Both the position numbers and the translations under genes were made by a program. Source: a virus. From it: a stretch of DNA of 12,800 nt. The notes beneath the pieces were generated by a model. The model saw only the letters and a program-made list of their open reading frames with translations. It did no database searches and was not told where the DNA came from. The stretch lies in UHGV virus genome UHGV-0088363. One strand, 5' to 3'. This document shows, one piece after another, positions 657 to 12,800 of this stretch. How positions within the stretch are numbered: position 1 is the stretch's first letter; each line of letters starts with the position of its first letter.

Positions 657-732
657 TGGTGCTGGTTAACGGACTTGAACCGCTACCCATTCGCTTACAA
701 GGCGACTGCTCTACCATTGGAGCTAAACCAGC
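657..732 (-). tRNA. tRNA gene, anticodon read as UGU (Thr-like), encoded CCA end
   Basis: Minus-strand sequence folds by hand as a 76-nt cloverleaf: acceptor GCTGGTT/AACCAGC (7 bp), D-stem GCTC/GAGC with GG in the loop, anticodon loop CTTGTAA, T-stem with T-loop TTCAAGT, discriminator A, CCA. One G-A pair at the top of the anticodon stem. Confidence 0.6.
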
Positions 733-737
733 ATGTT

Positions 738-812
738 TGGCGGGACAGCGTGGACTCGAACCACGATAAGAAGGTTAACAGCCTTCCGTAATGACCTTTA
801 TACGACTGACCC
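738..812 (-). tRNA. tRNA-like gene, anticodon read as GUU (Asn-like), possibly degenerate
   Basis: 75-nt cloverleaf 5 nt upstream of the previous tRNA: perfect anticodon stem GAAGG/CCTTC with loop CTGTTAA, perfect T-stem CGTGG/CCACG with T-loop TTCGAGT, then GCCA. Acceptor and D stems each have one mismatch. Confidence 0.45.
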
Positions 813-866: not shown

Positions 867-1379
867 TTAAACGGTATGATATTTCATTCTGGCTGCCTCA
901 AAAGCCGCAGCGGCAAGTTCGGCAGTGTCATGGTATCCAAGGTTAATACACTTTCCAGACGCATTAATTCTTGCTCTCCATTTCCCGTACTTAGCATCCC
1001 AAGACACGCCACGGTATCCAGATTTATTATTCTTCTGAATTTTCCTGTTTTGCATATTTTCGGAATGAGTGACAAGACGAAGATTTGATATCCGGTTATC
1101 TGTTCTTACCCTGTTGATGTGATCAATAAAACCATCTGGCATGGTGCCATAAACAATCAACCATGCCAGTCTGTGAGCAGGGTATGCTTTACCATTAATC
1201 ATAATCATTAAATACCCATCAGAATTTATTGATGAGCATTTCTTGAAAGCAAAACGAGAGTTCCATGTCAAAGTGGTCCTCTCTCTCCCCTGCCTCCACC
1301 TCCAGTGAAAGTCGCCTGATGATGGATTGTAATCAACAACAGAAAGCACCATTTCTGGCGTTAATTTTATTTCTTTCAT
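867..1379 (-). CDS. HNH homing endonuclease with C-terminal AP2-type DNA-binding domain (copy 1)
   Basis: 170-aa ORF with HNH motif DHINRVRTDNRISNLRLVTHSENMQN followed by SGYRGVSWDAKYGKWRARI...LGYHDTAELAAAAFEAA (AP2-like). RBS AAGGTAAAG upstream of the ATG. AT-rich relative to flanks. Confidence 0.8.
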   Translation of the reverse strand: MKEIKLTPEMVLSVVDYNPSSGDFHWRWRQGRERTTLTWNSRFAFKKCSSINSDGYLMIMINGKAYPAHRLAWLIVYGTMPDGFIDHINRVRTDNRISNLRLVTHSENMQNRKIQKNNKSGYRGVSWDAKYGKWRARINASGKCINLGYHDTAELAAAAFEAARMKYHTV

Positions 1380-2794: not shown

Positions 2795-3301
2795 TTATGG
2801 TCTACCATGGTTTTCATGAAAACCCAGTTCTTTTTCTGCCCTCTTCCTTTCTGCAATAGCGTCAATGATGCTAGCAAATATTCCAAGATATTTGGTGCGC
2901 CCATCTACGCATATATTCGCAATCCACTTACATCTCTCTTTATTGAAATATACTCCAGTCACTCCTGACGAATTGGTTATTTTTCTCTTTTGGTTCTGTG
3001 CATTCTGTTGGTGTGTAACCAATCGAAGATTAGATAGCCTATTATCTGACCTTACTCCATTTATATGATCAATTTTATACCCTAATGGAATCTCACCATT
3101 ATTTATCATCCATATAACGTGGTGAGCATAAGTAATTACACCATCGATAGTTAACATCCTATAACCATCACTCCTAATGTAACCAGCAACACTGCCAACC
3201 TTAACATTATTAGAAGGAGACACTTTCCATCTAAGTACACCTAAAACATCATCATATGATAATTTATTTCTTAATTCGTCTATGTTGCTTATATTTCTCA
3301 T
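2795..3301 (-). CDS. HNH homing endonuclease with AP2-type domain (copy 2)
   Basis: 168-aa ORF with IDHINGVRSDNRLSNLRLVTHQQNAQN followed by SSGVTGVYFNKERCKWIANI (AP2-like). AT-rich. Its start overlaps the 3' end of ninF. Confidence 0.8.
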   Translation of the reverse strand: MRNISNIDELRNKLSYDDVLGVLRWKVSPSNNVKVGSVAGYIRSDGYRMLTIDGVITYAHHVIWMINNGEIPLGYKIDHINGVRSDNRLSNLRLVTHQQNAQNQKRKITNSSGVTGVYFNKERCKWIANICVDGRTKYLGIFASIIDAIAERKRAEKELGFHENHGRP

Positions 3302-3814: not shown

Positions 3815-3987
3815 TTCCTCGCACGATGTCTTAGCCACCGGATATCCCACAGGTGAGCCGTGTAGTTGAAGGTTTTTACGTCAGATTCTTTTGGGATTGG
3901 CTTGCGTTTATTTCTGGAGCGTTTCGTTGGAAGGTATTTGCAGTTTTCGCAGATTATGTCGGTGATACTTCGTCGCTGTCGTCTCAT
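3811..3987 (-). CDS. ninE: NinE
   Basis: 58-aa product [52 protein letters not shown] matches lambda NinE as recalled; ATG overlaps the methyltransferase stop (ATGA). Confidence 0.8.
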
Positions 3988-4514
3988 GCCGCCCTCCTGA
4001 CGCCCTGCCCGATCGCCATCAATGCCGCTTTGGATACGGTAGTAAACATCCGTCGAGGACTGATGAACGGTCGCCAAATTAGCAGCATGGAGCCTTTGCT
4101 GTTTCCCTTCTTCTCCAGCCCTGTCGATGGTTCGATAAAATTAATCCGTCCATCAGTGATAATGCGAACTTCGTCGACACTCTCCAGAGCTTTGCTGAAC
4201 CATCCGACTGACATATCCTCTGGCACAAGCATAACTACCGTCTGTCGCTGTTGTATGCACTGCTCAGCGGCTTTTTCCACCCACGGCCTGATATTGCTGT
4301 ACGGTGGGTTATTCCAGATTGCACCGTGGCTTACCCACTCAGAATTGAGCGCGTCGTCGGCCTCAGTTAGCCAGTGAGCACACAGAGCATTTTTGTCGCT
4401 CGCTGCCGAATCCAGCCAGAATCCAAACTCAATATCCAGTGCATCAAAAAGCCAAAGCGGCGTTTGCCAGCAGTCTCTAACTTCTTTTGGTGTTTCTGAT
4501 TTATGCTTAATCAT
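3984..4514 (-). CDS. Phage Dam-type DNA N6-adenine methyltransferase
   Basis: 176-aa ORF with the N6-adenine MTase catalytic motif NPPY ([20 protein letters not shown]) and an N-terminal [26 protein letters not shown] region typical of small phage Dam-family enzymes. Confidence 0.8.
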
Positions 4515-5038
4515 TCAACCCTCGCATATTGCCCGTGATATTTGTTGATAGCCTCACTGGCAACCAAACCAGCAAGATCAAGATCTTCATAGAACCCAAA
4601 ATGCAACCGGCCAAAATCTGTGCGCACTTGAACGGCCCATTTATTTTTTTGCTTGTTCCATAAAACATTTTTTATTCCAGAACGGCTATTGCACTTAGTT
4701 TTCTGATTTCGGCTGTTTGCTATCCGGCTTGCCTCCCTAAGATTTTTTGGGGAATTGTCCAGCCTGTTTCCGTTAATATGGTCAATATTTTTCAATGGCA
4801 TTCTTTTGTTGTGCAGCGCAAAAACAACTACGTGAACAAACATCTGAATGCCTGCAAAACACACCTGTCTATACCCAGATCCATTTATCGATGTTTTAAT
4901 TTCATCTCCGGCCCGGTGGCTGTGGTTGGGGTGTTTTAGCGAGTCCTTTTTGTATCTGACTGTATCTCCGTCTAAATACAGATAATCCTCAATAAGCCGA
5001 TACCTATCTGACGCTGGCGTATTTGATTTGATAGTCAT
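4511..5038 (-). CDS. HNH homing endonuclease with AP2-type domain (copy 3)
   Basis: 175-aa ORF from the ATG overlapping the ninB stop (ATGA); HNH motif IDHINGNRLDNSPKNLREASRIANSRN followed by SGIKNVLWNKQKNKWAVQV...FGFYEDLDLAGLVASEAINKYHG; its stop overlaps the methyltransferase start. Confidence 0.75.
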   Translation of the reverse strand: MTIKSNTPASDRYRLIEDYLYLDGDTVRYKKDSLKHPNHSHRAGDEIKTSINGSGYRQVCFAGIQMFVHVVVFALHNKRMPLKNIDHINGNRLDNSPKNLREASRIANSRNQKTKCNSRSGIKNVLWNKQKNKWAVQVRTDFGRLHFGFYEDLDLAGLVASEAINKYHGQYARVE

Positions 5039-5475
5039 GCAGCCCGATCTCCCCATCTCGCTTTCCACTCCAGAGCCAGTCTCGCTTCGTCTGACCACTT
5101 AACGCCACGCTCTGTACCGAATGCCTGTATAAGCTCTAATAGCTCCGCAAATTCGCCTACACGCATCCTGCTGGTTGACTGGCCTATTACCACAAAGCCA
5201 TTCCCGGCAAGGTTAGGAACAACGTCCTGCTGCTTTAATGCTGCTGTAAAAACGCACTTCCAGCTTTCTGCATCCAGCCAGCGACCATGCCATTCAACCT
5301 GACGCGAAACGTCACCAAGGCAAGCCCAAAGCTTCCGATTTTGGTCTAAGCTGCGGTTGCGCTCCTGAATGGTTACTACGATTGGTTTTGTTGGGTCTGG
5401 AAGGATTTGCTGGATGGCTTGAATGGCGTTCTGCTGATGGATGGGGCTTCTTAGTTCAAACGTTAGTTTCCTCAT
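5035..5475 (-). CDS. ninB: NinB (Orf-family recombination mediator)
   Basis: 146-aa ORF, nearly collinear with lambda NinB as recalled (PDPTKPIVVTIQERNRSLDQNRKLWACLGDVSRQVEWHGRWLDAESWKCVFTAALK...). Confidence 0.9.
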   Translation of the reverse strand: MRKLTFELRSPIHQQNAIQAIQQILPDPTKPIVVTIQERNRSLDQNRKLWACLGDVSRQVEWHGRWLDAESWKCVFTAALKQQDVVPNLAGNGFVVIGQSTSRMRVGEFAELLELIQAFGTERGVKWSDEARLALEWKARWGDRAA

Positions 5476-9230: not shown

Positions 9231-10245
<1,015 letters not shown>

Positions 10246-10331: not shown

Positions 10332-11237
10332 ATGTCGATTAACAGCAATAGCGAATCCCTGCATCAAATGCAGCTTTTCCCTGTAGTAGAGGTTGTTTCT
10401 GATGATATTCCTATGGGCGTTCTCAATGATGGAACTCCTTACCTAACTCTCTACGGTCTCGCAAAGTTATGCGGCATTGATGACACGCCACTGAGGGTGT
10501 TCACATCAAACTGGAACACAGAGAAAAACAAACCCAGAGGTCAAAAAGTAGCTGCGTATTTAGCTGAGAAAGGGTTTCATAACGTCGAAAAGCTATACAC
10601 TCGCGTTTTAAATAGCTCAAACGTGGAAACTCATGCTTATCCTGACTATGTTTGCATGGCTATCCTCCGTTACTACGCTCTAGATGCCACCAATTTTGAT
10701 AGGTCAGTCGCAATAGGTAATTTTGTTCGCTTGGCTGAGTACACGCTTAAGCGAATGATTTATGAAAAGTCAAATTACAACCCAAATGCTTCAATAGATA
10801 TCTCATTCGAGAACTATAGAGCAAGGATTAAGCTAAACGATCAGATACCGACAACTCATTTTGCAGTATTCAGAGAGATAGCTGACATTGCCATGAACCT
10901 GATCGGAGGAGGATTCCCAATGGATGACACCACATCTTTGGATGGAAGTGTTGGAATTCACTGGGGAAAGTATTGGACAGCTAATGGGCTATCTGAGAAA
11001 TTCGGGGAAAGGGTGCAGTACCCACATTTATTCCCCGAAAATTACAGGCAGTCAGCTGCAAATAAGCATATAACAGCTTGGATTTATCCTATTGAGGCAC
11101 TTGGCGTGTTCAGAAAATGGCTACACGATAATTACGCAATGGAAAAACTGCCAAATTACCTTGGGAACAAAAAGATTAGTAACGCCTCCGAGCTATTAGA
11201 GTCGATAAAAAAACCAGCACTCCCAAATAAGCATTGA
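10332..11237 (+). CDS. Unknown 301-aa protein in the position occupied by rexA-rexB in lambda; candidate lysogen-expressed exclusion/defense gene
   Basis: Uninterrupted ORF with RBS AAGGAAAT, co-directional with cI, followed by a terminator; AT-rich versus flanks; no similarity to RexA/RexB and no kinase or NTPase motifs visible by eye. Confidence 0.7.
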   Translation: MSINSNSESLHQMQLFPVVEVVSDDIPMGVLNDGTPYLTLYGLAKLCGIDDTPLRVFTSNWNTEKNKPRGQKVAAYLAEKGFHNVEKLYTRVLNSSNVETHAYPDYVCMAILRYYALDATNFDRSVAIGNFVRLAEYTLKRMIYEKSNYNPNASIDISFENYRARIKLNDQIPTTHFAVFREIADIAMNLIGGGFPMDDTTSLDGSVGIHWGKYWTANGLSEKFGERVQYPHLFPENYRQSAANKHITAWIYPIEALGVFRKWLHDNYAMEKLPNYLGNKKISNASELLESIKKPALPNKH

Positions 11238-11247
11238 TCTCCACCAC

Positions 11248-11276
11248 AACCCGGCATCTGCGCCGGGTTTTCTTTG
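11248..11276 (+). terminator. Rho-independent terminator ending the cI-moron transcription unit
   Basis: CCCGGC-ATCTGC-GCCGGG (6 to 8-bp stem) followed by TTTTCTTTG, 11 nt after the ORF stop. Confidence 0.6.
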
Positions 11277-11425
11277 CCTAACGCCCCCAAAAAACGCATA
11301 ACCAATTGTATTTATTTCAAAATTAATAGATACAACTCACTAAACATCGCAATTCAGATCTCTCGATCACCTTCCCAATCCACACAACCCTGCAAAAAAT
11401 AAATCTATATAAAAAACATACAGAT

Positions 11426-11495
11426 AACCATCTGCGGTGATAAATTATCTCTGGCGGTGTTGACATAAATACCACTGGCGGTGATACTAAGCACA
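11426..11495 (+). promoter_or_regulatory. Left operator region OL3-OL2-OL1 with promoter pL
   Basis: AACCATCTGCGGTGATA (11426..11442), TATCTCTGGCGGTGTTG (11446..11462), TACCACTGGCGGTGATA (11470..11486); -35 TTGACA at 11460..11465 and -10 GATACT at 11483..11488, as in lambda. Confidence 0.9.
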
Positions 11496-11526
11496 TCAGC
11501 AGGACGCACTGACCACCATGAAGGTG

Positions 11527-11558
11527 ATGATCTTAAAAATTAAGCCCTGAAGAAGGGT
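11527..11558 (+). promoter_or_regulatory. nutL (boxA-like TGATCTTAA and boxB GCCCTGAAGAAGGGT)
   Basis: Lambda-like nutL spacing and boxB loop; boxA and the last boxB base differ from the lambda sequence as I recall it. Confidence 0.7.
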
Positions 11559-11756
11559 AGCATTCAAAGCAGAAGGCTTTGGGATTGGATGAATGAGCAG
11601 GCTGATGCTCGACCAATGTATAAACAGCGCTCATGGCAAGCAGTAACCAATCTGCGCCTCAAGACAGCGTCACTGGTAGTGCGGGCGCTCTAACCAGTAA
11701 GCCGGGGTTCAGCGCCGGCCATCCAATCACCAAAGCTAACTGACAGGAGAATCCAG

Positions 11757-12083
11757 ATGGATGCACAAACACGCCGCCGCGAACGTCGCGCAGAGAAACA
11801 GGCTCAATGGAAAGCAGCAAATCCCCTGTTAGTTGGGGTAAGCGCAAAACCAGTTAACCGCCCTATTCTCTCGCTGAATCGCAAACCGAAATCACGAGTA
11901 GAAAGCGCACTGAATCCGATAGACCTTACGGTGCTGGCTGAATACCACGAACAGATTGAAAGCAACCTGCAGCGTATTGAGCGCAAGAATCAGCGCACAT
12001 GGTACAGCAAGCCACGCAGTGAAATGGGTGTGACTTGTGTTGGTCGCCAGAAAATGAAATTAGGCAGCAAACCACTTATTTGA
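11757..12083 (+). CDS. N: N antitermination protein
   Basis: 108-aa ORF MDAQTRRRERRAEKQAQWKAANPLLVGVSAKPVNRPILSLNRKPKSRVESALNPIDLTVLAEYH..., arginine-rich motif at the N-terminus; RBS ACAGGAGAATCCAG; the C-terminal approx 20 residues differ from lambda N as recalled. Confidence 0.95.
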   Translation: MDAQTRRRERRAEKQAQWKAANPLLVGVSAKPVNRPILSLNRKPKSRVESALNPIDLTVLAEYHEQIESNLQRIERKNQRTWYSKPRSEMGVTCVGRQKMKLGSKPLI

Positions 12084-12094
12084 GAGGAATTAAT

Positions 12095-12718
12095 ATGTCA
12101 TCAATCCGCTTAACTACGAGAATGAAAGAGGAAATCGCTCGTAACGCTTTAATTAAGTCTGGGTTTTTCACTGAACTTAAAGAAGTAACAAAGTTAAAGA
12201 ACCAGCTTGCACTTGACGCCAGAGTTATTGCGTTTGGCGGTAAAAAGAAAACTGAGGAAGTGGATCAGTTATCATCCAAGTTGGTAGCTATAAGTGAAGA
12301 ACTTGAAAAGATGGGATGTTCATTTTACTCATACGATGTTCGTTCTACTTCAATTTATCTGACTGTATCTGGCAGAAGGGTTGGATGGCATTCATATGGG
12401 AAAGACGGCAACGGCGAAGATATATTGCTCCCTACTCCGACCAAAGATAAATGCATGTTTAGCGCAGAACACGAAATAACAAAAAGGTTTGATGAAATCT
12501 GCGCATTGCAACAAAAACTTGAAGCCAAGAAAAAGGATATCGAATCAAATGTATGGGCTGCTTTGAACTCAGTCACAACAGTTAAGCGACTTATTGAAGT
12601 TTGGCCTGAAAGCAAAGAATTGCTACCAGAAGAAGCAGATAAAGCAAGTACAGCACTTCCTGCTTTACGGGTAGAAGATTTGAATAAGATGATTGGACTT
12701 CCTTCCGAGGCCGCATAG
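12095..12718 (+). CDS. Unknown 207-aa protein immediately downstream of N; candidate moron
   Basis: ATG 11 nt after the N stop with GAGGA inside the N 3' end; AT-rich; charged, coiled-coil-like sequence; followed by a hairpin and T-rich tract. The track's upstream extension (12035) overlaps N and is not used. Confidence 0.65.
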   Translation: MSSIRLTTRMKEEIARNALIKSGFFTELKEVTKLKNQLALDARVIAFGGKKKTEEVDQLSSKLVAISEELEKMGCSFYSYDVRSTSIYLTVSGRRVGWHSYGKDGNGEDILLPTPTKDKCMFSAEHEITKRFDEICALQQKLEAKKKDIESNVWAALNSVTTVKRLIEVWPESKELLPEEADKASTALPALRVEDLNKMIGLPSEAA

Positions 12719-12735
12719 TCGGCCTTTACTTTTGG
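12708..12735 (+). terminator. Possible rho-independent terminator after the 207-aa ORF
   Basis: AGGCCG-CATAGT-CGGCCT (6-bp stem, stop codon in the loop) followed by TTACTTTTGG; the T-run is interrupted. Confidence 0.4.
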
Positions 12736-12800
12736 CATAAACAACAGAATAAACACTGCACTGTGTATTCATTCCAACGAGTGAATACACGGAGCAATGT

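What the first reader, a model, noticed from the sequence alone, without database searches (positions are those of the whole stretch)
12084..12735. AT-rich 207-aa ORF translationally coupled to the end of N
In lambda, N is followed by a terminator region and then ral. Here the N stop codon lies inside the RBS of a 207-aa AT-rich ORF of unknown family, which would be made whenever pL fires. The early-left region after N is another known slot for host-takeover, anti-restriction or exclusion functions. The product is charged with coiled-coil-like segments and I cannot assign it to a family.
Basis: partly seen in the sequence, partly recalled or inferred. Interest (0 to 1): 0.6.

Follow-up and report, generated by a model that had tools for sequence, protein, structure and literature searches.

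The report
Nmad5-family early gene after N
The ORF is a real, conserved phage gene of the already named but functionally uncharacterised Nmad5 family, carried as a swappable one-gene cassette just downstream of the N antiterminator in many E. coli lambda-like phages; it is known and annotated, but what it does is not known.

Summary
A 207-aa ORF (12095-12718, +) starts 11 nt after the stop codon of a lambda-type N gene. The N stop TGA overlaps its GAGAGG Shine-Dalgarno. GC is 40% against 50% for N.

The claim that it belongs to no family does not hold. It is a full-length member of Pfam PF18757 Nmad5 (E 3e-72) and PHROG 1965. RefSeq names it "Nmad5 family putative nucleotide modification protein". 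Copies 95-99% identical occur in phages HK542, HK244, mEp235, Kapi1 and Stx1 phages, and in 211 of 5426 complete E. coli genomes.

It is a self-contained cassette: an invariant RBS, the ORF, and a terminator-like hairpin. It follows at least five different N-type antiterminators, or follows ral. Here it occupies the lambda sieB-orf28-ral slot. It is under purifying selection (pN/pS 0.33). IS elements disrupt it in Stx2a phages.

The confident AlphaFold model is a helical coiled coil with a small conserved C-terminal domain. It has no enzyme fold and no solved relative. No nucleotide-modification genes flank the lambdoid copies. In other phages it sits beside SSB, family-A polymerase or thymidylate synthase.

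The only experimental data are Tmn-escape mutations in Dhillonvirus, which map to its most conserved motif. My best inference is a non-enzymatic immediate-early binding factor. Novelty is low.

The parts
11460..11488 (+). pL promoter (TTGACA-17-GATACT) that drives N and the ORF
   Evidence: Promoter scan. Window 11400-11583 is 96.7% identical to the lambda oL/pL-nutL region.
11544..11558 (+). nutL boxB-like hairpin sequence (GCCCTGAAGAAGGGT)
   Evidence: Read from the sequence. It lies inside the block homologous to lambda 35494-35677, which contains the annotated Nutl site.
11757..12083 (+). N antiterminator gene, lambda type, 108 aa. Its last ~25 nt are not lambda-like and travel with the downstream cassette.
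   Evidence: Pfam N36 E 1.5e-26. PHROG 271. 93% identity to lambda N up to window 12058.
12076..12094 (+). Invariant cassette leader TTATTTGAGAGGAATTAAT, containing SD GAGAGG (12082-12087). It overlaps the N stop codon TGA at 12081-12083.
   Evidence: Identical in all 85 loci compared. Unstructured in the RNA fold.
12095..12718 (+). Nmad5-family gene, 207 aa
   Evidence: PF18757 E 3.2e-72, covering 1-206 of 206 profile positions. PHROG 1965 E 2e-84. RefSeq name seen. pN/pS 0.33. AF2 mean pLDDT 84.7.
12578..12703 (+). Codons 162-203, the most conserved part of the family (TT.K[RK]L[ILV]E.WPE..ELLP ... LPA..V.DLN..IGLP). R165 aligns with the Tmn-escape site K296 of phage SM_S22.
   Evidence: Alignments A1 and A2. 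BLASTP against SM_S22 CDS6. PMC11846954.
12707..12736 (+). Terminator-like hairpin (7 bp, 5 of them G-C) with the ORF stop codon TAG in its loop, followed by a T-rich tract. This is the first terminator-like site after pL.
   Evidence: Present in most related loci, but with a stem mismatch in roughly a dozen of the 85. The right arm and tail are homologous to lambda sequence just after ral.
12761..12792 (+). Perfect 14-bp hairpin downstream of the cassette. It is part of the conserved boundary segment shared with lambda 34003-34087.
   Evidence: RNA fold z -5.4 for 12690-12800. 96.5% identity to lambda.

Best explanation
Shown. The ORF is a genuine protein-coding gene of the Nmad5 family (PF18757 / PHROG 1965). 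In E. coli lambdoid phages it moves as a one-gene cassette made of an invariant SD leader, the ORF, and a hairpin with a T tract. The cassette is inserted in the variable slot after the N-type antiterminator. In this window it replaces lambda's sieB-orf28-ral segment exactly, between the 3' end of N and the conserved post-ral segment.

Inferred from anatomy. There is no terminator-like site between pL and the end of the ORF, and the RBS is open and strong. The protein should therefore be made with N from the immediate-early pL transcript, before N-dependent read-through, and not in the repressed lysogen.

Inferred mechanism, the weakest step. The product is not an enzyme. It is a helical coiled-coil protein that acts by binding through its small, highly conserved C-terminal domain and tail. 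Two observations suggest the target is a conserved component of DNA replication or repair metabolism, or DNA itself. First, the motif is almost invariant in phages of very different hosts. Second, the gene recurs next to SSB, family-A DNA polymerase, thymidylate synthase and recombination genes. In lambdoid phages, which use the host replisome, that target would be a host component. This would make the protein an accessory early host-takeover factor, dispensable in the laboratory. At least one immune system (Tmn) interacts with it genetically.
For: Identity:
- for family and naming.
- for near-identical annotated copies in phages and prophages.

Real gene:
- Intact in 82 of 84 loci.
- pN/pS 0.33 against about 1 or more in the shifted frames.
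- Homologues at 41-59% identity in Klebsiella, Pantoea, Providencia and Serratia.

Cassette structure:
- The leader is invariant in all 85 loci, while the upstream gene varies. It is one of five N/ARM types, Ral, DUF5484, or only an N 3' remnant. The downstream genes also vary.
- The lambda homology breakpoints are at window 12058 and 12715.

Immediate-early expression:
- The only terminator-like sites are at 11248 and 12707, and the only promoter-like site is pL.
- The translation initiation region is unstructured.

Non-enzymatic binder:
- The AF2 model has mean pLDDT 84.7. It consists of long helices, a beta hairpin, a small C-terminal helical domain and a low-confidence but sequence-invariant tail.
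- BFVD returns only uncharacterised family members.
- Invariant residues include no His, Cys or Asp catalytic-type set.

DNA-metabolism neighbourhood:
- Between Enc34-type SSB and PolA, with DUF2800, in at least 8 viral contigs.
- Next to thymidylate synthase and DNA polymerase in N4-like phage Pollock and in Pseudomonas phage Rocky.
- Next to YqaJ exonuclease or an AAA_24 ATPase.
- Inside the M6-type thymidine hypermodification cassette (PMC9476957).

Accessory status and link to host physiology or immunity (PMC11846954):
- The Dhillonvirus homologue can be deleted.
- It could not be cloned, which the authors attribute to apparent toxicity.
- A K-to-E change gives escape from Tmn, whereas deletion does not.
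- That residue aligns to R165 in the K[RK]L.E.WPE motif.
- IS-disrupted copies occur in Stx2a phages.
Against: - No experiment addresses the lambdoid protein.
- Neighbourhood associations differ between phage groups and could reflect only 'early operon' placement.
- In Dhillonvirus and Vibrio phage vB_VchM-138 the gene is an isolated opposite-strand insert inside structural modules, with no DNA-metabolism neighbour.
- The conserved C-terminal tail has low pLDDT, so its role as a binding motif is a guess.
- No partner has been identified.
- A cryptic catalytic activity in a helical fold cannot be excluded by structure comparison alone.
- The terminator hairpin carries a stem mismatch in about a dozen of the 85 loci, and its activity is untested.
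Confidence: 0.45

Rival explanations
1. Dedicated counter-defence protein. It would be an immediate-early inhibitor of a specific host immune system, analogous in role to Ral, Ocr or anti-Tmn. It would neutralise the defence by direct binding before phage DNA is attacked.
For: - It occupies the same slot as the anti-restriction gene ral and is expressed at the earliest possible time.
- It behaves as a mosaic single-gene cassette with moron-like placement in Dhillonvirus and a Vibrio myovirus.
- A single charge-reversal in the conserved motif of the Dhillonvirus homologue confers escape from Tmn, while deletion does not. This fits a gain or extension of inhibitory specificity (PMC11846954).
- It is dispensable.
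Against: - The C-terminal motif is nearly invariant across phages of distant hosts. This is unusual for inhibitors of fast-evolving immune proteins.
- Wild-type Nmad5 does not protect Dhillonvirus from Tmn.
- It co-occurs with ral directly upstream in 8 of 85 loci, so it is not a ral substitute.
- It is not acidic like the DNA mimics: pI is 6.8 and net charge is 0.
- It was absent from the supplementary files held as text for the accessory-gene screen (PMC12373910) that I searched.
Confidence: 0.2
2. True nucleotide or DNA modification function, as the family name suggests. The protein would catalyse or scaffold a base modification of phage DNA or of the nucleotide pool.
For: - The family was named for its association with modification genes (Iyer et al. 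2013, cited in PMC11846954).
- In M6-like Pseudomonas phages it lies inside the thymidine hypermodification cassette (PMC9476957).
- It lies next to thymidylate-synthase homologues in phages Rocky and Pollock.
- The window phage does encode a Dam-family N6-adenine methyltransferase (3984-4514).
Against: - In 85 lambdoid loci no hydroxymethylase, kinase, aGPT-Pplase, glycosyltransferase or similar gene neighbours it.
- The Dam gene is 7.6 kb away in the rightward operon.
- The predicted fold is a coiled coil with no nucleotide-binding or catalytic architecture and no structural relative among enzymes.
- There is no conserved catalytic-type residue set.
- Most of the 150 best family representatives are stand-alone proteins of about 200 aa, never fused to enzymes.
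Confidence: 0.1
3. Prophage-encoded superinfection exclusion or defence function that benefits the lysogen, like sieB or rexAB, which occupy neighbouring slots in lambda.
For: - It replaces a segment that contains sieB in lambda.
- The same prophage carries a BstA abortive-infection gene next door.
Against: - There is no promoter-like site between pL and the ORF, so it should be silent in a repressed lysogen.
- There is no PADLOC hit.
- The model shows a soluble helical protein rather than a membrane protein.
- The family is common in virulent phages (N4-like, Dhillonvirus, YuA/M6-like), which cannot benefit from lysogen protection.
Confidence: 0.05
4. Chance ORF or decaying remnant with no protein function.
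For: - It is disrupted by an IS element in the Stx2a phage lineage.
- It is AT-rich relative to its neighbours.
Against: - Pfam E 3e-72.
- 2486 clusters at 50% identity with E of 1e-3 or better.
- Intact in 82 of 84 loci.
- Frame-specific purifying selection.
- Confident AF2 model.
Confidence: 0.01

Closest known systems
Nmad5 family (Pfam PF18757, InterPro IPR040835, PHROG 1965; 'Nmad5 family putative nucleotide modification protein' in RefSeq)
   Same: - Full-length, end-to-end profile match.
- The same stand-alone architecture of about 200 aa.
- The same N-terminal motif (M..RLT..I..NA..K.G ... GG) and C-terminal motif (K[RK]L.E.WPE..ELLP ... LPA..V.DLN..IGLP).
   Different: The genomic association that gave the family its name, neighbouring nucleotide-modification genes, is absent in this window and in all lambdoid loci examined.
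HK542_033, HK244 gp01, the mEp235 homologue, Kapi1_018 and SH2026Stx1 gp17 (hypothetical proteins directly after N in sequenced coliphages)
   Same: - 95-99% identical protein (96.5-98.8% at the DNA level), with the same leader, the same 11-nt distance from N in HK542, HK244 and SH2026Stx1, and the same downstream hairpin.
- The GenBank records for HK542 and HK244 already annotate this ORF and a 'boundary sequence' at the junction.
   Different: - The immunity-region content differs. HK542 has two small ORFs where this window has BstA.
- Kapi1 has a different ARM protein that ends 136 nt upstream.
- Kapi1_018 is annotated from the upstream TTG (227 aa).
Dhillonvirus Nmad5 (phage SM_S22 CDS6 and the SM_A8 homologue, PMC11846954). 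This is the only family member with genetic data.
   Same: - Shares the conserved C-terminal half (31-33% identity over residues 104-203) and the N-terminal RLT motif.
- The Tmn-escape residue K296 (K216 in SM_A8) aligns with R165 of the window protein.
   Different: - It is longer (254 aa from the likely true start), with an inserted middle region.
- It sits on the opposite strand inside the head-gene module of a virulent phage, not in an early-left operon.
Lambda ral, orf28 and sieB (early-left genes in the N-to-ea10 slot)
   Same: - Same position. The cassette lies between the 3' end of N and the conserved segment that follows ral in lambda.
- Same leftward early transcription unit for ral.
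   Different: - There is no sequence or family relationship.
- Ral (PF11058) is a 66-aa protein that can sit directly upstream of Nmad5 in the same phage.
- sieB is a separate exclusion gene.
Nmad5 genes inside phage DNA-replication or thymidine-hypermodification modules (M6/SN1/YuA-like Pseudomonas phages, N4-like Pollock, DUF2800-SSB-PolA prophage modules)
   Same: Same family and size, and presumably early or middle expression with DNA-metabolism genes.
   Different: - Only 23-35% identical.
- These phages encode their own polymerase, SSB or thymidylate synthase, which lambdoid phages lack.

Membership tests
Nmad5 (PF18757) | Profile match above the curated gathering score over the whole domain | tested here: met
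   243.4 bits against a cutoff of 27, E 3.2e-72. Protein residues 4-203 match profile positions 1-206 of 206. PHROG 1965 E 2e-84.
Nmad5 (PF18757) | Conserved N-terminal (RLT..I..NA..K.G, GG) and C-terminal (K[RK]L.E.WPE..ELLP; LPA..V.DLN..IGLP) motifs | tested here: met
   All invariant columns of alignments A1 and A2 are present in the window protein: R5, L6, N17, A18, G23, G48, G49, W170, P171, E172, L196, N197, G201, P203.
Nmad5 (PF18757) | Stand-alone phage or prophage protein of about 200 aa | tested here: met
   The protein is 207 aa. Most of the 150 best representatives are about 190-230 aa and match end to end.
Nmad5 (PF18757) | Genomic association with nucleotide or DNA base-modification genes (the basis of the name) | tested here: not met
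   No such gene neighbours it in the window or in the lambdoid loci. The association is seen only in other phage groups. This is a contextual feature, not a sequence criterion for membership.
Nmad5 (PF18757) | Biochemical activity in nucleotide modification | not testable with these tools
   No activity has been reported for any member in the papers found. The predicted fold is non-enzymatic.
Ral anti-restriction (PF11058) | Sequence match to the 66-aa Ral family | tested here: not met
   There is no Ral hit for the ORF. A true Ral ORF (E 2e-48) is a separate gene upstream of Nmad5 in 8 of 85 loci.
DNA-mimic anti-restriction proteins (Ocr/ArdA type) | Strongly acidic surface, and family or fold match | tested here: not met
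Known anti-phage defence or exclusion proteins (PADLOC; SieB/Rex type) | Match to a defence-system model, and expression in the lysogen | tested here: not met
   No PADLOC hit at E up to 1. No promoter-like site other than the repressible pL.
Translationally coupled gene pair (N to ORF) | Downstream RBS occluded or dependent on upstream translation, and the arrangement conserved | tested here: inconclusive
   The stop-to-start distance is 11 nt and the stop overlaps the SD. However, the initiation region is unstructured. Only 36 of 85 loci have a full N ending there, and in the others the same RBS follows non-coding or unrelated sequence.

The most novel reading that the evidence does not exclude
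Nmad5 proteins may not be nucleotide-modification factors at all. They may be a very large family (at least 2,400 clusters at 50% identity) of non-enzymatic, immediate-early phage effectors. Their invariant C-terminal motif would dock onto a conserved bacterial DNA-replication or repair component. The immune sensor Tmn would sense this docking, or be blocked by it after a single charge change. The lambdoid cassette in culturable K-12 phages (HK542, mEp235) would then be the tractable model for a widespread, misnamed host-takeover or immune-interface protein.
Probability: 0.3. Interest if true: 0.55.

Novelty: already known. Interest (0 to 1): 0.3.

Why it matters
As a sequence feature it is ordinary. 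It is a named family, annotated by RefSeq, present in published phage genomes and in about 4% of complete E. coli genomes.

What remains open is the function of the family. It is widespread across siphoviruses, podoviruses and myoviruses, both temperate and virulent. It is expressed at the very start of infection in lambdoid phages. It has no recognisable enzymatic fold, and it has one intriguing genetic link to the Tmn defence system.

Solving it in a lambda-like phage would annotate thousands of phage proteins. It would probably also correct a misleading name. The finding itself does not reveal a new kind of system.

Tried and rejected
- NCBIfam and PADLOC scans gave no meaningful hit for the ORF.
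- A single-sequence search and a profile search against PDB sequences gave only coiled-coil noise.
- Foldseek against PDB gave no match with E of 0.001 or better.
- Foldseek against BFVD returned only uncharacterised Nmad5 relatives.
- The afdb50 library was unavailable.
- An Rfam scan of 11200-12800 gave nothing near gathering scores.
- Literature searches for PF18757, IPR040835 and phrog_1965 returned no papers.
- A search for the protein in the supplementary files of a phage accessory-gene screen found no occurrence.
- Searches for HK542, HK244 and mEp235 papers returned nothing about this gene.
- The Iyer et al. 2013 paper that defined the family is not held.
- The GTDB scan returned only 9 loci, because the back-translated patterns were narrow.
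- The weak Pfam hits (YfjL_C, SKA2, matrilin coiled coil) and the 'Smchd1' label in phage APC_JM3.2 were dismissed as coiled-coil artefacts.
- The upstream TTG start (12035, 227 aa, used for Kapi1_018) was rejected. It overlaps N, the family N-terminus aligns to M1 at 12095, and the SD sits in front of that ATG.
- The antisense 133-aa ORF at 12355-12756 was rejected, because selection is specific to the + frame.
Full report
**What is there**

The window is the immunity and early region of a lambda-immunity lambdoid prophage, read with the leftward operon on the + strand.
- cI lies at 9532-10245.
- A pL promoter-like site, TTGACA-17-GATACT, lies at 11460-11488. It sits inside a block 96.7% identical to lambda oL/pL-nutL.
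- N lies at 11757-12083. It is 108 aa, with Pfam N36 E 1.5e-26 and PHROG 271.
- The N stop codon TGA (12081-12083) overlaps a GAGAGG Shine-Dalgarno at 12082-12087.
- Seven bases later, ATG 12095 opens a 207-aa frame that ends at TAG 12716-12718.

The ORF is 40.1% GC, against 50.0% for N and 45.5% for the window. Its interval 12084-12735 corresponds to the RBS, the ORF and the downstream hairpin.

**It is a real gene**

- The frame is intact at 207 aa in 82 of 84 related loci. The other two stop three codons early.
- Across 68 distinct alleles, pN/pS is 0.33 in this frame, against 1.0 and 1.4 in the shifted frames.
- Homologues at 41-59% identity occur in Klebsiella, Enterobacter, Pantoea, Erwinia, Providencia and Serratia.

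**It has a family**

- The protein matches Pfam PF18757, 'Nucleotide modification associated domain 5' (Nmad5), end to end: E 3.2e-72, 243 bits against a cutoff of 27.
- It matches PHROG 1965, function unknown, at E 2e-84.
- RefSeq already calls it 'Nmad5 family putative nucleotide modification protein'.
- DNA 96.5-98.8% identical is present in phages HK542 (HK542_033), HK244, mEp235, Kapi1 (Kapi1_018, annotated with IPR040835), SH2026Stx1 (gp17), a series of Stx1a phages and the PhiR12 phages.
- It is present in 211 of 5426 complete E. coli genomes.
- A profile search of 1.84 billion cluster representatives finds 2486 clusters at E of 1e-3 or better. Most of the 150 best are stand-alone proteins of about 190-230 aa.

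**Anatomy of the locus: a one-gene cassette**

The 22 bases TTATTTGAGAGGAATTAATATG are identical in all 85 loci compared. What lies upstream varies:

| Upstream element | Distance to ATG | Loci (of 85) |
|---|---|---|
| Lambda-type N | 11 nt | 20 |
| Two other N types sharing the ...GSKPLI end | 11 nt | 8 each |
| PF25694-type N | 61 nt | 14 |
| A different arginine-rich protein | 136 nt | 7 |
| Ral (PF11058, E 2e-48) | 36 nt | 8 |
| Non-coding remnant of the N 3' end only | 11 nt (remnant stop) | 7 |
| DUF5484 or other small ORFs | various | the rest |

Downstream neighbours are equally variable. They include ea10/DUF2528, several unrelated ORFs and transposases.

Against lambda, homology runs through N to window 12058. 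It resumes at window 12715, which corresponds to lambda 34087, the base after ral. The cassette therefore replaces lambda's sieB-orf28-ral segment exactly. It lies between two conserved boundary sequences, and the HK542 and HK244 GenBank records already annotate a 'boundary sequence' there.

The ORF stop codon lies in the loop of a 7-bp, GC-rich hairpin followed by a T tract (12707-12736). This is the first terminator-like site after pL. About a dozen of the 85 loci carry a stem mismatch, so terminator function is an inference. A perfect 14-bp hairpin follows at 12761-12792 and is shared with lambda.

**Expression**

No promoter-like site other than pL, and no terminator-like site, lies between pL and the ORF end. 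The gene should therefore be co-transcribed with N on the immediate-early transcript and be silent in the repressed lysogen.

The initiation region is less structured than shuffled controls (z +1.5), and the SD and spacing are near-ideal. Translation therefore does not need to be coupled to N. More than half of the related loci use the same RBS without an N stop codon 11 nt upstream. 'Translationally coupled' describes proximity, not a demonstrated dependence.

**The protein**

The AlphaFold2 model, built on a 25-sequence alignment, has mean pLDDT 84.7 and pTM 0.71. Its elements are:
- Long helices at 8-21, 24-47, 50-72 and 127-158, forming a coiled-coil bundle.
- A beta hairpin at 86-100 at one end.
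- A small C-terminal helical domain at 163-199.
- A tail at 184-207 that has low confidence yet is almost invariant in sequence (LPA..V.DLN..IGLP).

Structure and sequence comparisons find no characterised relative:
- Foldseek against PDB gives nothing with E of 0.001 or better.
- A profile against PDB sequences gives coiled-coil noise.
- BFVD returns only uncharacterised Nmad5 relatives from many phages.

The invariant residues (R5, L6, N17, A18, G23, R43, G48, G49, F132, W170, P171, E172, E175, N197, G201, P203) do not look like a catalytic set. The pI is 6.8 with zero net charge, so the protein is not an Ocr- or ArdA-like DNA mimic.

**Context elsewhere**

- In M6/SN1-like Pseudomonas phages, Nmad5 is listed within the thymidine hypermodification cassette (PMC9476957). 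In phage Rocky it is next to a thymidylate-synthase homologue and near the DNA polymerase.
- In N4-like phage Pollock it lies between thymidylate synthase and the gp42-primase-SSB replication genes.
- In at least eight IMG/VR contigs it lies between an Enc34-type ssDNA-binding protein and a family-A DNA polymerase, preceded by DUF2800. In two more it is the first gene of that operon, opposite an S24-type repressor.
- Other loci put it beside a YqaJ exonuclease or an AAA_24 ATPase.
- In Providencia-type prophages at about 46% identity, it lies one or two ORFs downstream of arginine-rich, N-like ORFs.
- In Dhillonvirus and Vibrio phage vB_VchM-138 it is an isolated opposite-strand gene inside structural modules.

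The common denominator is early or DNA-metabolism context, not nucleotide modification specifically. The lambdoid loci contain no modification genes next to it. The Dam methyltransferase of this prophage is 7.6 kb away in the other operon.

**Experimental knowledge**

The only data found are from Dhillonvirus (PMC11846954):
- Tmn-escape mutants carry K216E (SM_A8) or K296E (SM_S22) in nmad5.
- Reverting the mutation restores sensitivity.
- Deleting nmad5 does not give escape.
- The gene could not be cloned, which the authors attribute to apparent toxicity.

I fetched SM_S22 CDS6 and aligned it. K296 corresponds to R165 of the window protein. This is the second residue of the conserved basic pair at the start of the K[RK]L[ILV]E.WPE motif, the most conserved element of the family.

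In the Stx2a phage lineage the gene is split at about codon 35 by an IS3-family element. RefSeq annotates it there as a pseudogene. It is therefore dispensable for that prophage.

**Interpretation**

The identity, the cassette structure and the immediate-early placement are well supported. The mechanism is inferred. I favour a non-enzymatic binding protein whose conserved C-terminal domain and tail contacts a conserved component of DNA replication or repair metabolism. In lambdoid phages, which have no polymerase or SSB of their own, that component would be a host protein or DNA itself. This makes it an accessory early takeover factor.

The reasons are:
- The helical fold.
- The unusual conservation of the C-terminal motif across phages of distant hosts.
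- The recurrent SSB, polymerase, thymidylate-synthase and recombination neighbourhood.
- The cloning toxicity.
- The dispensability.

A dedicated counter-defence inhibitor is the main rival. Its slot, its timing, its cassette behaviour and the Tmn genetics speak for it. The motif conservation and the failure of the wild-type protein to protect against Tmn speak against it. A real nucleotide-modification role, a lysogen-protecting exclusion role and a non-functional ORF are progressively less likely, for the reasons given under each rival.

**Verdict**

The gene is already known and named, so novelty is low. Interest (0.3) comes only from the unresolved function of a large, probably misnamed phage protein family. 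This lambda-type cassette would be a convenient genetic model for that family.

Noticed in passing
window 10332-11237 (+), with a hairpin at 11248-11269: The rexAB slot between cI and pL holds a 301-aa BstA abortive-infection homologue (PHROG 6287 E 6e-133; PADLOC BstA E 1e-105). It has no Pfam hit and is followed by a terminator-like hairpin. RefSeq labels the 99.2%-identical STEC1587 region 'hypothetical protein'. HK542 has two different small ORFs in this slot.
   Followed up: partly
window 867-1379, 2795-3301, 4511-5098 (all -): Three separate HNH_3 endonuclease ORFs lie in the nin/Q region. The first also has an AP2 domain. This is an unusually high number of free-standing homing-endonuclease-like genes for 5 kb.
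   Followed up: partly
window 657-732 and 738-812 (-): tRNA-Thr (tgt) and tRNA-Asn (gtt) genes lie between the Q-side region and the holin gene. The related STEC1587 prophage has the same pair.
   Followed up: partly
window 3984-4514 (-): A Dam-family DNA N6-adenine methyltransferase (PF05869, E 8e-66) lies in the nin region. It is the only DNA-modification enzyme in the window. It is not linked to the Nmad5 gene.
   Followed up: no
window 12761-12792 (extended 12753-12800): A perfect 14-bp hairpin with no T tract follows the cassette terminator. It is 96.5% identical to lambda 34003-34087, just downstream of ral. It could be an RNA processing or termination element of the pL operon. Its function was not examined.
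   Followed up: partly
window 11584-11727: The N leader between the nutL block and the N start codon has no detectable similarity to lambda, whereas the flanks are 93-97% identical.
   Followed up: no
L100 1585-3521 (E. coli 2015C-3107) and L101 (Stx2a phage Stx2_3725): The Nmad5 gene is split by an IS3-family insertion, with a 4-bp overlap of the two halves, at the position equivalent to window ~12198-12201. About 48 Stx2a phage records show the same two-piece match.
   Followed up: yes
L099 5005-6009 (-) (phage SM_S22 CDS6) and L003 5033-5716 (Kapi1_018): Both annotated Nmad5 CDSs appear over-extended at the N terminus. The family N-terminal motif (M.RLT..I...I..N) begins at M81 of SM_S22 CDS6, which matches the 254-aa BF9 protein. 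Kapi1_018 starts at the upstream TTG rather than at the conserved ATG behind the SD. This probably explains the 'truncated N-terminus' difference between SM_A8 and SM_S22 reported in PMC11846954.
   Followed up: partly
Related loci, e.g. L018, L057, L032, L059, L041: In 8 of 85 loci a Ral gene sits 36 nt upstream of the Nmad5 start. The two genes therefore co-exist rather than being strict alternatives.
   Followed up: yes
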